A stretch of DNA of 64,000 nt, taken from NCBI RefSeq assembly GCF_988242995.1, contig NZ_OZ547043.1; one strand, 5' to 3'. A program made the position numbers. Positions 22,878-25,800 of the stretch are shown here, one piece after another (position 1 is the first letter of the stretch; each line of letters starts with the position of its first letter).

Positions 22878-25800
22878 TTAAGCGCGCGCTTCAACTCACC
22901 CCTGCAATATTTTGTCCATCACGCGCCCCGGCAGCAGGCGCTTGAGCACCATTACCGCCCTGGTCACCAGCGTTACCGGATAGCGCATCTTCGGTTTCTC
23001 GCTAATAAAAGCATGGCGCACTTTGTCGACCACCGCTTCCGGTCCCAACGTAAAGCGGGCGGCGATGCCAGGATTTTCGACTGGTTTATCACTTTGCGTC
23101 TGGTTGACGTTGTCGGTGAAGCGAGTACGAATGGGACCGGGTTCGATCAGGCTGACTTTTATTCCGCTGTGGCGCAGCTCCATGCGCAGCGCATCCGACC
23201 ACGCCTCCAGCGCATATTTACTGGCTGCGTAAGCGCCGCGACCCGGCGTGGAGATTAATCCCATCACCGATGAGGTCATCACAATACGCCCTTCACCGTG
23301 CGGTAACATCGCGGGTAACAGGCGCATGGTGAGCTGGTGTGCGCCGAAAAAGTTGGCAGAAAACTGCTGTTCCATCTGCGCACGGCTGATGGTGGAAAGG
23401 GGGCCATACATGCCGAATCCGGCATTGTTAAAGATCCCATACAGACAATTATCGGTCAGGGCGATCACCTCGTCGGCTGCGCGATCAACACTTTCTGGTG
23501 AATCCAGATCGATCAACACGCCGGTAAATCCCATGCTGTTCATGCGCTCAACATCATCCGGTTTCCGGCAACCTGCCAGCACATGAAAACCCTGGCGTTT
23601 TAATTCGAGCGCGCTTTCCAGGCCAATTCCACTGGAACATCCGGTAATTAAGACCGATTTTTGCATAACTTTACCTGTCAGGATCTCCGTTGCTTTATGA
23701 GTCATGATTTACTAAAGGCTGCAACTGCTTCGCCATCCAGTCGGCAATAAACGGCTGGGCGTCGCGGTTGGGATGAATACCGTCATCCTGCATCCATTGT
23801 GGTTTGAGGTAGACCTCTTCCATAAAAAAGGGCAGCAGCGGAACATCAAACTCTTTGGCGAGTTTGGGGTAAATGGCGCTAAAGGCTTCATTATAACGGC
23901 GACCATAGTTTGCAGGCAGACGTATTTGCATTAACAATGGTTCAGCGTTGGCGGCTTTGACATCCTGCAAAATCTGGCGCAGCGTTTGCTCGGTTTGTTG
24001 TGGCTGAAAACCACGCAAACCGTCATTGCCGCCCAGTTCTACCAGCACCCAGCGCGGCTGATGCTGTTTCAGCAGAGCCGGAAGGCGCGCCAGCCCTTGT
24101 TGCGAGGTGTCGCCGCTGATGCTGGCATTGACTACCGACGTTTTACTCTGCCACTTATCATTCAACAAGGCAGGCCAGGCCGCGCTGGCAGACATTCGAT
24201 ACCCGGCGCTCAGGCTATCACCCAGAATCAATAACGTGTCCGCTGCGGCGGCACGGAAGGTTAACAGGACCAGGAACAGGAAGGGCAAATGCCAGCGGAA
24301 AACATTGTTGAAGTTCATCATCTTAAGAAGTCCGTCGGTCAGGGGGAGCATGAACTCTCCATCCTCACCGGAGTTGAGCTGGTTGTCAAACGTGGCGAGA
24401 CCATCGCACTGGTGGGCGAGTCGGGATCGGGTAAGTCAACCTTGCTGGCGATCCTCGCCGGGCTGGATGACGGCAGCAGTGGCGAAGTGAGTCTGGTGGG
24501 ACAACCGCTACATAATATGGACGAAGAAGCGCGGGCAAAGTTGCGCGCGAAGCACGTAGGCTTTGTTTTTCAGTCATTTATGTTAATTCCTACCCTTAAC
24601 GCGCTGGAAAACGTCGAGCTTCCGGCGCTGCTGCGTGGTGAGAGTAGCGCAGAAAGTCGTAACGGGGCGAAAGCGTTGCTCGAACAGTTAGGGCTGGGTA
24701 AACGTCTTGATCATCTTCCGGCACAGCTTTCCGGCGGTGAACAGCAACGAGTGGCGCTGGCGCGAGCCTTTAATGGTCGACCTGATGTGCTGTTTGCCGA
24801 CGAGCCCACCGGCAACCTTGACCGCCAGACCGGCGATAAAATTGCCGACCTGCTGTTTTCCCTCAACCGTGAGCATGGCACCACGTTGATTATGGTGACC
24901 CACGACCTGCAACTGGCGGCACGCTGCGACCGCTGCTTACGGCTGGTGAACGGGCAATTGCAGGAGGAAGCATGATTGCACGTTGGTTCTGGCGCGAATG
25001 GCGTTCGCCGTCGCTATTAATTGTCTGGCTGGCGCTAAGCCTGGCGGTGGCCTGCGTGCTGGCGCTGGGCAATATCAGCGATCGCATGGAGAAGGGCTTA
25101 AGCCAACAAAGCCGGGAGTTTATGGCGGGCGATCGGGCGTTGCGCAGTTCGCGCGAAGTGCCGCAAGCGTGGCTGGAGGAAGCGCAAAAGCGCGGCCTGA
25201 AAGTCGGCAAGCAGCTGACTTTCGCCACCATGACATTTGCAGGCGACACACCGCAGCTGGCGAACGTCAAAGCGGTGGATGATATCTACCCGATGTATGG
25301 CGATCTGCAAACTAATCCCCCTGGCCTGAAACCGCAGGCGGGCAGCGTATTGCTGGCCCCACGCCTGATGGCACTGCTTAACCTGAAAACAGGCGACACC
25401 ATCGACGTGGGCGATGCCACCTTGCGGATTGCCGGAGAAGTGATTCAGGAACCGGATTCCGGTTTTAACCCCTTCCAGATGGCTCCGCGTCTGATGATGA
25501 ATCTGGCGGATGTCGATAAAACCGGAGCCGTGCAGCCGGGGAGTCGGGTCACCTGGCGCTATAAATTCGGCGGCAACGAGAACCAGCTCGACAGCTATGA
25601 GAAATGGTTGTTACCTCAGCTTAAACCCGAACAACGCTGGTACGGTCTGGAACAGGACGAAGGCGCGCTGGGGCGCTCGATGGAACGCTCGCAACAGTTC
25701 CTGCTGCTTTCGGCGCTTCTGACCTTGCTGCTGGCAGTGGCAGCGGTGGCGGTGGCGATGAATCATTACTGTCGCAGTCGCTACGATCTGGTGGCGATCC

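What the first reader, a model, noticed from the sequence alone, without database searches (positions are those of the whole stretch)
24289..24321. Divergent tesA and ybbA coding regions overlap at their 5' ends by 33 bp
The tesA start (minus strand, 24321) lies inside the first 11 codons of ybbA (plus strand, from 24289), so the two promoters and 5' UTRs must be interleaved or antisense to each other.
Basis: seen in the sequence. Interest (0 to 1): 0.2.

Follow-up and report, generated by a model that had tools for sequence, protein, structure and literature searches.

The report
Real head-to-head tesA–ybbA gene overlap
Two oppositely oriented E. coli genes whose proteins work together (lipid hydrolase TesA and transporter ATPase YbbA) really do share their first 30-33 bases; this is already in the reference annotation and in the literature, so it is a well-supported but ordinary finding.

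Summary
ybbA (+) can only start at ATG 24289. tesA (-) starts at ATG 24321 or the adjacent ATG 24318. So 33 (or 30) bp are read on both strands, codon against anticodon. K-12 MG1655 carries the same 33-bp overlap in its reference annotation.

The overlap is not an annotation artefact. In 22 Enterobacterales species, third-codon-position diversity inside the overlap is 0.13 (ybbA) and 0.20 (tesA), against 0.53 and 0.55 in the rest of each gene. [quoted passage not shown] The rival no-overlap start (TTG 24288) is present in only 10 of 22.

- The tesA transcript starts at 24353, inside ybbA codon 22. Its -35 (TTGACA) is conserved within ybbA.
- The ybbA ribosome-binding site lies in tesA codons 13-15.
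- ybbA-sense RNA covers tesA, and RNase III-cut duplexes map there.
- ExcludonFinder (2025) already lists tesA-ybbA as a divergent excludon, and a 2025 PLoS Biology paper notes the operon overlap.

New here: ybbA is the divergent neighbour in all 80 gammaproteobacterial loci. Outside Enterobacterales, 23 of 53 share a 'CATG' two-base start-codon overlap.

Any regulatory role remains inferred. Interest is low to moderate.

The parts
24289..24321 (.). Dual-coding overlap. It encodes YbbA residues 1-11 (MPAENIVEVHH) on + and TesA residues 1-11 (MMNFNNVFRWH, the n-region of the signal peptide) on -, in exact codon-anticodon register.
   Evidence: Conservation.
23695..24321 (-). tesA coding sequence (208 aa). 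The mature enzyme starts at A27.
   Evidence: Residues 27-208 are identical to PDB 1IVN and 9GE8 chain T.
24316..24318 (-). Second tesA ATG (M2), the alternative start. It gives a 207-aa protein and a 30-bp overlap.
   Evidence: Used in the RefSeq annotation of strain ST2747. M2 or M1 is retained in every Enterobacterales locus.
24289..24975 (+). ybbA coding sequence (228 aa), the ATPase of the YbbAP transporter.
   Evidence: 100% identical to PDB 9GE6/7/8 YbbA. An in-frame TAA lies at 24262 and there is no other start codon before codon 42.
24278..24285 (+). ybbA Shine-Dalgarno sequence AGGAAGGG, lying in tesA codons 13-15 (CCC TTC CTG).
   Evidence: The TTCCT/AGGAA core is invariant in 22 species, and the wobble base of tesA F14 is invariant.
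24322..24353 (-). tesA 5' UTR (32 nt). The transcription start at 24353 falls in ybbA codon 22.
   Evidence: Kim et al. 2012, K-12 TSS 519021 (-), 45 reads. The window sequence is identical to K-12 here.
24361..24366 (-). tesA promoter -10 element GAGGAT (AAGGAT in most relatives), in ybbA codons 25-26.
   Evidence: Inferred from its position relative to the mapped TSS.
24384..24389 (-). tesA promoter -35 element TTGACA (perfect consensus, 17-nt spacer), in ybbA codons 32-34.
   Evidence: GACAA is invariant in 22 species, including the wobble bases of ybbA V32 and V33.
23720..24134 (+). Zone of weak ybbA-sense 5' ends inside tesA: 23720, 23902, 23947 and 24134.
   Evidence: Kim 2012: 518570 and 518802, 2 reads each. 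Cappable-seq: 518388 and 518615, relative read scores 1.6 and 2.5. Mapped with offset -494668, which was checked by exact sequence matches.
23827..24286 (.). Span of p19-captured, RNase III-cut 21-22-nt RNA duplexes: 23827-23848, 24016-24037, 24193-24220 and 24264-24286. The last one covers the ybbA Shine-Dalgarno sequence.
   Evidence: Huang et al. 2020, Table S3. Exact matches located in the window.
24286..24288 (-). TTG (tesA codon 12). This is the rival start used by the 194-197-aa database versions; it would abut ybbA with no overlap. Rejected.
   Evidence: TTG is present in only 10 of 22 species.
24349..24351 (-). Upstream ATG of the longest ORF (the 218-aa version). Rejected as the start.
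   Evidence: It lies only 2 nt downstream of the mapped TSS. The ATG is not conserved, and Rahnella has a stop codon between it and M1.
24972..27386 (+). ybbP, the permease. It follows ybbA with a 4-nt ATGA overlap.
22896..23705 (-). ybbO, downstream of tesA in the same direction, with an 11-nt overlap.

Best explanation
tesA (-) and ybbA (+) are a true head-to-head overlapping gene pair. ybbA starts at ATG 24289. tesA starts at ATG 24321 or the adjacent ATG 24318. So 33 or 30 bp encode both YbbA residues 1-11 and the n-region of the TesA signal peptide, codon against anticodon.

Shown: the expression signals are interleaved.
- The tesA sigma-70 promoter (-35 TTGACA at 24384-24389, -10 at 24361-24366, TSS 24353) sits in ybbA codons 22-34.
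- The ybbA Shine-Dalgarno sequence sits in tesA codons 13-15.
- ybbA-sense RNA starts inside tesA and is antisense to much of the tesA mRNA.
- In K-12 the two RNAs pair and are cut by RNase III.

Inferred:
- The face-to-face promoters and the RNA duplex, which covers the ybbA ribosome-binding site, dampen each other modestly. This would hold ybbAP low relative to tesA. It is not an on/off switch.
- The overlap arose in the Enterobacterales ancestor from an older back-to-back 'CATG' arrangement. An indel changed the relative reading phase, and tesA initiation moved about 10 codons upstream onto ATGs supplied by the ybbA His10/His11 CAT codons.
- Once each gene's signals lay inside the other gene, the arrangement became hard to undo.
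For: Sequence: ybbA has an in-frame TAA at 24262 and no alternative start before GTG at codon 42, in the Walker A motif. YbbA is identical to the solved 9GE6-8 chain, and LolD/MacB align from residue 5-10. Mature TesA begins at A27, so a signal peptide must precede it.

Comparison across 22 Enterobacterales species:
- Third-position diversity in codons 2-11 is 0.13 (ybbA) and 0.20 (tesA), against 0.53 and 0.55 elsewhere. None of 208 and 185 other 10-codon windows is as low.
- His10/11 of ybbA are 39 CAT: 0 CAC, against 69:46 elsewhere. Glu is 39 GAA: 1 GAG against 186:178. Val is 33 GTT: 0 other against 75:203.
- One of the M1/M2 ATGs is always kept even where ybbA H10 or H11 changes.
- TTG at tesA codon 12 is present in only 10 of 22.
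- The -35 core and the ybbA Shine-Dalgarno core are invariant, wobble bases included.

Published experiments in K-12:
- tesA TSS with 45 reads and a 32-nt UTR; ybbA TSSs inside tesA.
- tesA-ybbA is one of 16 divergent excludons.
- Over tesA, wild-type sense/antisense RNA is 29.7/48.7 RPM, against antisense of 2.7 RPM or less in the five neighbouring genes listed around it (ybbA 0.5).
- p19-captured dsRNA over tesA is 182-2396 RPM, against 86 RPM or less for the neighbours.
- RNase III duplexes map to 23827-24286.

Wider comparison: ybbA is the adjacent divergent neighbour in 80 of 80 loci. Outside Enterobacterales, 23 of 53 have a 2-nt CATG start-codon overlap and 40 of the 52 with assigned starts have a spacer of 13 nt or less, or overlap. 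The anchor distance is congruent to 1 mod 3 in Enterobacterales and to 2 mod 3 in the CATG group.
Against: - No direct evidence of the tesA initiation codon was found, such as N-terminal proteomics or initiation-site profiling. M1 and M2 cannot be told apart.
- The ybbA-sense 5' ends are weak: 2 reads each, or relative read scores of 1.6-2.5. A directed primer experiment gave no ybbA product.
- It is not shown that the antisense RNA over tesA is the ybbAP leader rather than a separate antisense RNA.
- In two RNase III mutants, tesA and ybbA sense RNA levels barely change: 29.7 to 27.2 and 27.4, and 21.7 to 13.6 and 17.1. This argues against strong RNase III-dependent control.
- ybbA rises 4.2- to 6.6-fold with a LolCDE inhibitor, and tesA is not mentioned in that paper's main text. 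The two genes can therefore be regulated separately.
- All the experimental data are from K-12, not from the strain of the window (98.9% identical).
Confidence: 0.8

Rival explanations
1. The overlap is real, but it is a neutral frozen accident with no regulatory role. A start-codon shift extended TesA into ybbA. The dsRNA and antisense reads are by-products, and conservation only reflects the difficulty of separating two interlocked genes.
For: RNase III mutants show little change in tesA or ybbA sense RNA. ybbA is induced on its own by envelope stress. The spacing varies among lineages: a gap of 10-11 nt in Pseudomonas, gaps of 25-445 nt in 13 loci, and an overlap of 51-78 nt in Pectobacterium. 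So no single geometry is required.
Against: A spacer of 13 nt or less, or an overlap, is kept in 40 of 52 non-enterobacterial loci and in all 27 Enterobacterales loci. This holds across several orders of bacteria. tesA is among the stronger dsRNA sources in E. coli. None of this proves a function.
Confidence: 0.45
2. Annotation artefact: tesA really starts at TTG 24288. The genes then abut without sharing coding bases, as in the 194-197-aa database versions.
For: Many automated annotations use this start (the Klebsiella gene KPN_00472 is 594 bp). TTG is a legal start codon. The ATGs at 24321 and 24318 have no clear Shine-Dalgarno sequence.
Against: - TTG is present in only 10 of 22 species; the rest have TGG, TAC, TAT, CTN, TTA, CGG, GTA or TTT.
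- The resulting signal peptide (MPFLFLVLLTFRAAA) has no charged n-region.
- ybbA synonymous sites in codons 2-11 are almost frozen, and its His codons are 39 CAT: 0 CAC.
- One upstream ATG is always retained.
Confidence: 0.05
3. ybbA starts downstream of 24321.
For: None found.
Against: The next canonical in-frame start is GTG at codon 42, inside the Walker A motif (LVGESGSGKS). Only ATT, ATC and CTG codons lie before it. Homologous ATPases align from residue 5-10. The Shine-Dalgarno sequence AGGAAGGG sits 3 nt upstream of ATG 24289 and its core is conserved.
Confidence: 0.01
4. The near-invariant 14-nt block (ATGATGAACTTCAA on the tesA strand) is conserved because it is a nucleic-acid element, not because TesA residues 1-5 matter. 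Candidates are a protein or small-RNA binding site, or an unstructured AT-rich landing pad for ribosomes.
For: The overlap contains the most AT-rich 33-nt stretch of the two genes: GC 0.39 for the overlap itself, and a minimum of 0.27 for the window starting at 24299. Both translation-initiation regions fold weakly, at -7.8 and -9.0 kcal/mol, against -14.8 and -16.3 for internal windows.
Against: No Rfam family matches. The substitutions that do occur keep both frames open and are conservative in YbbA (I/V/L). This reading is compatible with the best explanation and does not exclude it.
Confidence: 0.2

Closest known systems
Divergent excludons (defined in Listeria; catalogued for E. coli by ExcludonFinder, NAR 2025, PMC12288877)
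   Same: Neighbouring genes on opposite strands whose transcripts overlap at their 5' ends and form RNase III-sensitive duplexes. tesA-ybbA is itself one of the 16 divergent excludons listed for E. coli MG1655.
   Different: Classic excludons overlap through long UTRs and give mutually exclusive expression of genes with opposed functions. Here the coding sequences themselves overlap. The two products are partners in one complex. Reciprocal expression has not been shown, and RNase III mutants change little.
E. coli divergent operons with overlapping 5' ends (Conway et al. 2014, PMC4161252) and p19-captured dsRNA clusters such as asd-yhgN and rsd-nudC (Huang et al. 2020, PMC7373196)
   Same: Face-to-face promoters give complementary 5' RNA. 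136 of 388 divergent operons overlap, by 168 nt on average. Divergent 5' overlaps are the commonest class among the top coding-gene dsRNA clusters.
   Different: In most of those cases only UTRs overlap, or a UTR overlaps the neighbour's 5' coding end. In tesA-ybbA the two start codons lie inside each other's reading frames. The antisense RNA covers most of tesA.
Same-strand 4-nt ATGA overlaps used for translational coupling (here ybbA-ybbP, 24972-24975)
   Same: A compact gene junction where one gene's start lies within its neighbour's coding sequence.
   Different: In the same-strand case one mRNA is read by coupled ribosomes. The tesA-ybbA overlap lies on opposite strands, involves two mRNAs, and cannot couple translation.
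Symmetric bidirectional promoters (divergent transcription from overlapping -10 elements)
   Same: Two oppositely oriented transcription units share a very short control region.
   Different: In that class the transcripts diverge from start sites a few bases apart. Here the mapped start sites face each other (tesA at 24353 heading left, ybbA-sense at 24134 or lower heading right), so the transcripts overlap. The description of that promoter class is from my own knowledge, not from a tool result.

Membership tests
Head-to-head (divergent) overlapping protein-coding gene pair | Two coding sequences on opposite strands share nucleotides at their 5' ends. | tested here: met
   24289-24321 are shared. 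The same 33-bp overlap is in the K-12 reference annotation.
Head-to-head (divergent) overlapping protein-coding gene pair | The annotated start codons are the ones actually used. | tested here: inconclusive
   For ybbA the start is unambiguous from the sequence. For tesA, comparison strongly favours M1/M2 over TTG 24288 or ATG 24351. No direct initiation-site or N-terminal data were found.
Head-to-head (divergent) overlapping protein-coding gene pair | Both reading frames are under purifying selection within the overlap. | tested here: met
   Third-position diversity is 0.13 and 0.20 in the overlap, against 0.53 and 0.55 elsewhere, and no other 10-codon window is as low. Synonymous codon choice is frozen.
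Divergent excludon | Transcripts of the two neighbouring genes overlap. | tested here: met
   Met from published K-12 data mapped onto the window, not from new experiments. The tesA TSS lies inside ybbA, the ybbA-sense 5' ends lie inside tesA, and antisense RNA over tesA is 48.7 RPM. The pair is listed by ExcludonFinder.
Divergent excludon | The overlapping RNAs form a duplex that RNase III processes. | tested here: met
   p19-captured dsRNA over tesA is 182-2396 RPM. Paired 21-22-nt duplexes map to 23827-24286.
Divergent excludon | Reciprocal, mutually exclusive expression of the two genes. | not testable with these tools
   Only hints exist. Sense RNA levels barely change in RNase III mutants. 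ybbA is induced 4-6-fold by a LolCDE inhibitor with no mention of tesA.
YbbAP-TesA type VII ABC transporter / lipid hydrolase system | Proteins identical or near-identical to the structurally characterised YbbA and TesA. | tested here: met
   YbbA is 100% identical to 9GE6/7/8. Mature TesA is identical to 1IVN and 9GE8_T.
YbbAP-TesA type VII ABC transporter / lipid hydrolase system | Gene order ybbO-tesA divergent from ybbA-ybbP. | tested here: met
   ybbA is the adjacent divergent neighbour of tesA in 80 of 80 gammaproteobacterial loci.
Symmetric bidirectional promoter | Start sites on the two strands a few bases apart, with transcripts running away from each other. | tested here: not met
   The mapped start sites face each other across 220 nt or more (24353 on - against 24134 or lower on +), so the transcripts overlap.

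The most novel reading that the evidence does not exclude
The interlocked head-to-head junction may be an ancient, selected coupling device. In it, each gene's ribosome-binding site lies within the other gene's first codons. The start codons overlap as CATG in 23 of the 53 non-enterobacterial loci, spread over several orders, and the overlap has expanded to 30-78 nt in Enterobacterales. On this reading, the junction uses promoter interference and sense-antisense pairing to set the ratio, or the timing, of TesA relative to its transporter YbbAP. It would be a cis-antisense circuit linking two subunits of one envelope machine, rather than two antagonistic functions.
Probability: 0.25. Interest if true: 0.5.

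Novelty: already known. Interest (0 to 1): 0.25.

Why it matters
The finding mainly serves as a clean, well-supported example.

- Head-to-head coding overlaps in bacteria are often suspected of being start-codon errors. This one shows the signature of true dual coding.
- It explains why the n-region of the TesA signal peptide is unusually conserved: it is the reverse complement of the first beta-strand of YbbA.
- It explains why databases disagree on TesA length (194-218 aa).
- It has a practical consequence. Any edit, deletion or recoding of the first 11 codons of either gene, or of ybbA codons 22-34 (the tesA promoter) or tesA codons 13-15 (the ybbA ribosome-binding site), will affect the partner gene. 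This matters for knockouts used to study the YbbAP-TesA complex and for tesA engineering in fatty-acid production.
- Whether the antisense arrangement tunes the ratio of the two partners is an open, testable question of modest scope.

Tried and rejected
- The stringent sigma-70 consensus scan found no promoter in 23900-24800. The experimentally mapped tesA promoter has a perfect -35 but only 3 of 6 matches in the -10, so the scan missed it.
- Supplements of ExcludonFinder, Conway 2014 and SMRT-Cappable-seq were not held as text or held no entry for these genes. Thomason 2015 was not available.
- The stored Cappable-seq file appears to list plus-strand sites first and is truncated, so the tesA TSS could not be cross-checked there.
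- The TRAINSPOTTER N-terminomics supplements hold no TesA or YbbA peptide, so M1 and M2 remain unresolved.
- Rfam found nothing in 23600-24800 at E <= 1.
- ATG 24351 (the 218-aa version) was considered and rejected as the tesA start. It is not conserved, Rahnella has an intervening stop, and it lies 2 nt from the TSS.
- TTG 24288 was considered and rejected as the tesA start.
- A downstream ybbA start was considered and rejected.
- My automatic start-picking rule mis-chose TTG in three loci (L014, L023, L024). I corrected these by eye, because the MM start is present in each.
- A search for a conserved embedded ybbA promoter inside tesA, using wobble-position invariance, found nothing beyond the Shine-Dalgarno codon.
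Full report
**What is in the sequence**

The window carries ybbO (22896-23705, -), tesA (23695-24321, -), ybbA (24289-24975, +) and ybbP (24972-27386, +). 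It is E. coli:
- 99.3% identical to strain ST2747;
- 98.9% identical to K-12;
- 94% identical to E. albertii.

The locus is present in 5418 of 5426 complete E. coli genomes. The stretch 24289-24321 is read on both strands. ybbA codons 1-11 (ATG CCA GCG GAA AAC ATT GTT GAA GTT CAT CAT) are the exact reverse complement, codon for codon, of tesA codons 11-1. K-12 MG1655 RefSeq annotates the same 33-bp overlap. One RefSeq genome starts tesA at the second ATG, which gives 30 bp.

**Are the start codons right?**

For ybbA there is no freedom.
- An in-frame TAA lies at 24262, and ATG 24289 is the first start codon after it.
- The next canonical in-frame start is GTG at codon 42, inside the Walker A motif.
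- The protein is identical to the solved YbbA chain (9GE6-8).
- LolD, MacB and BceA align from residue 5-10.
- A Shine-Dalgarno sequence, AGGAAGGG (24278-24285), precedes the ATG.

The freedom lies in tesA. Database versions of TesA are 218, 208, 207, 204, 197 and 194 aa long. The 194- and 197-aa versions checked start at the codon equivalent to TTG 24288, which would abut ybbA with no overlap. Mature TesA begins at A27 (1IVN and 9GE8_T), so a signal peptide must come before it. From TTG it would be MPFLFLVLLTFRAAA, which lacks a charged n-region.

**Comparative test**

I aligned diverse TesA relatives and used the alignment to fetch 80 gammaproteobacterial loci. ybbA is the immediately adjacent, divergent neighbour in all 80.

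In 22 Enterobacterales species, from Escherichia to Morganella, the 33-nt block is almost frozen. ATGATGAACTTCAA hardly varies. The numbers are:

| Measure | ybbA | tesA |
|---|---|---|
| Third-position diversity, codons 2-11 | 0.13 | 0.20 |
| Third-position diversity, rest of gene | 0.53 | 0.55 |
| Other 10-codon windows as low | 0 of 208 | 0 of 185 |

Synonymous codon choice in ybbA is fixed in the direction tesA needs:
- His10/11: 39 CAT to 0 CAC, against 69:46 elsewhere;
- Glu4/8: 39 GAA to 1 GAG, against 186:178 elsewhere;
- Val7/9: 33 GTT to 0 other, against 75:203 elsewhere.

Where YbbA His11 becomes Arg, tesA loses M1 but keeps M2. Where His10 becomes Asp or Gln, tesA loses M2 but keeps M1. 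One ATG always survives. TTG at tesA codon 12 is present in only 10 of 22 species. The upstream ATG 24351 is not conserved, and in Rahnella a stop codon separates it from M1.

I conclude that tesA starts at M1 or M2 and that the overlap is real dual coding. This also explains an oddity. TesA residues 2-11, a signal-peptide n-region, vary less than the rest of the protein at first and second codon positions. They mirror the first beta-strand of YbbA.

**Interleaved signals**

Kim et al. 2012 mapped the K-12 tesA transcription start at 519021 (-), with 45 reads and a 32-nt UTR. That corresponds to window position 24353, in ybbA codon 22. The upstream sequence is identical in the window. It reads TTGACA (24384-24389), a 17-nt spacer, then GAGGAT (24361-24366).

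The -35 core GACAA is invariant in the 22 species. This includes the wobble bases of ybbA Val32 and Val33, two of only five invariant third positions in ybbA codons 12-228. The promoter is therefore under selection inside ybbA.

In the other direction, the ybbA Shine-Dalgarno core AGGAA is the invariant TTCCT of tesA codons 14-15. No conserved ybbA promoter could be found inside tesA. The mapped ybbA-sense 5' ends are weak and scattered:
- 518570 and 518802, with 2 reads each;
- 518388 and 518615, with Cappable-seq relative read scores of 1.6 and 2.5.

These correspond to window positions 23902, 24134, 23720 and 23947. A directed primer experiment gave no ybbA product.

The overlap lies in the most AT-rich patch of the two genes. 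Both translation-initiation regions fold weakly. Because the reverse complement of an AT-rich stretch is itself AT-rich, one patch can serve both genes.

**RNA-level evidence**

The data are from Huang et al. 2020, on K-12.

| Gene | WT sense RNA (RPM) | WT antisense RNA (RPM) | p19-captured dsRNA, six data sets (RPM) |
|---|---|---|---|
| tesA | 29.7 | 48.7 | 182-2396 |
| ybbA | 21.7 | 0.5 | 11-86 |
| ybbO | 32.8 | 1.3 | 9-25 |

Antisense RNA over tesA is as abundant as sense RNA. Paired 21-22-nt RNase III products match the window exactly at 23827-23848, 24016-24037, 24193-24220 and 24264-24286. The last duplex covers the ybbA Shine-Dalgarno sequence and ends 2 nt before the ATG.

The near-absence of antisense RNA over ybbO places the start of the plus-strand RNA near the 3' end of tesA. 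This fits the 5' end at 23720. ExcludonFinder (2025) lists tesA-ybbA among 16 divergent excludons of MG1655. The 2025 PLoS Biology paper on the YbbAP-TesA complex notes that the two operons partially overlap.

**Function: shown and inferred**

Shown:
- the coding overlap;
- the embedded promoter and ribosome-binding site;
- the overlapping transcripts;
- the RNase III-cut duplexes.

Inferred: the stronger tesA promoter and the ybbA-sense transcription dampen each other. The possible routes are polymerase collision, promoter occlusion and masking of the ribosome-binding sites.

Evidence against strong control:
- In two RNase III mutants the sense RNA levels of both genes hardly move.
- ybbA alone is reported as induced 4.2- and 6.6-fold by a LolCDE inhibitor.

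A neutral, entrenched arrangement is a serious rival. I give it 0.45 on the question of function.

**Evolution**

Outside Enterobacterales the best-supported start codons are placed as follows:

| Arrangement | Loci (of 53) |
|---|---|
| Overlap by 2 nt as CATG | 23 |
| 0-2 nt apart | 8 |
| 10-13 nt apart (7 Pseudomonas, 1 Marinomonas) | 8 |
| Overlap of 26 nt | 1 |
| Gaps of 25-445 nt | 12 |
| No start assigned (L035) | 1 |

The CATG group spans Vibrionales, Rheinheimera, Alkalimonas, Marinobacterium, Oceanisphaera, Dokdonella, Cycloclasticus and others. In these loci each gene's Shine-Dalgarno-like motif lies in the other gene's first codons.

The distance between conserved anchors is congruent to 2 mod 3 in the CATG group and to 1 mod 3 in Enterobacterales. 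The anchors are the Gly of the TesA GDS motif and YbbA residue 12. The YbbA N-terminus keeps its length (10-11 codons before the anchor). TesA gains about 8-9 codons.

I infer that a phase-changing indel in the Enterobacterales ancestor put tesA into the codon-anticodon frame of ybbA. From general knowledge, this is the antisense frame with the fewest stop codons. Initiation then moved onto ATGs provided by ybbA CAT codons. Pectobacterium carries a further 48-nt insertion that is open in both frames and lengthens the overlap to 51-78 nt.

**Verdict**

The overlap is in the reference annotation, and the pair is already listed as a divergent excludon, so I rate it already known. Interest is low to moderate (0.25). 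The comparative results here add detail rather than a new kind of system: the dual-coding signature, the conserved embedded promoter, and the widespread CATG junction.

Noticed in passing
L027-L075 (for example L027 around 2500; junction sequences printed): In 23 of 53 non-enterobacterial gammaproteobacterial loci, the tesA and ybbA start codons overlap by two bases as the palindrome CATG. Each gene's Shine-Dalgarno-like motif lies inside the other gene's first codons. Eight more loci have the starts 0-2 nt apart.
   Followed up: partly
L016 and L017 (Pectobacterium), about 2525-2578: A 48-nt insertion inside the overlap stays open in both frames. It extends both the TesA n-region and the YbbA N-terminus (MFAKTSPASATPSKTAHVENILEVHH) and lengthens the overlap to 51-78 nt.
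   Followed up: partly
window 23695-23705 and 24972-24975: There are same-strand overlaps at the other two junctions. The tesA stop and ybbO start share 11 nt. The ybbA stop and ybbP start share ATGA (4 nt). The whole four-gene cluster therefore has no intergenic DNA.
   Followed up: no
window 23695-24321 (tesA), K-12 data: tesA is a hot spot of antisense RNA and p19-captured dsRNA, at 182-2396 RPM against 86 RPM or less in the neighbouring genes. Antisense reads equal or exceed sense reads in wild type.
   Followed up: partly
window 24289-24975 (ybbA), K-12 data: ybbA is listed as up-regulated 4.23- and 6.56-fold by a LolCDE inhibitor (PMC5105897). tesA is not mentioned in that paper's main text. 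This suggests an envelope-stress-inducible ybbAP promoter that has not been mapped.
   Followed up: no
L018 (Pantoea stewartii) 2147-2306; L011 (Phytobacter massiliensis) about 2231-2262; L043 (Vibrio hannami) about 2047: The ybbA matches are split into two pieces. There is a gap of about 160 nt with duplicated residues 69-76 in P. stewartii, and apparent frameshifts in the other two. These could be disrupted genes or assembly errors.
   Followed up: no
Protein database entries P0001-P0120: Automated annotations give TesA lengths of 194, 197, 204, 207, 208 and 218 aa for near-identical genes, a start-codon inconsistency. The 194- and 197-aa versions checked start at the codon-12 position, which removes the overlap with ybbA. 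A few entries of 286-347 aa look like over-extended calls.
   Followed up: partly
L078 (Salinicola tamaricis); L035 (Vibrio mexicanus): These are outliers. Salinicola has a spacer of about 445 nt between tesA and ybbA, the only large one. V. mexicanus has no ATG start for tesA and an anchor distance of 105, in a third phase, which suggests a frameshift or sequencing error.
   Followed up: no
window 24107-24490 (+): A 127-aa ORF runs across the junction in a third frame. It is a mechanical ORF with no support and was not treated as a gene.
   Followed up: no
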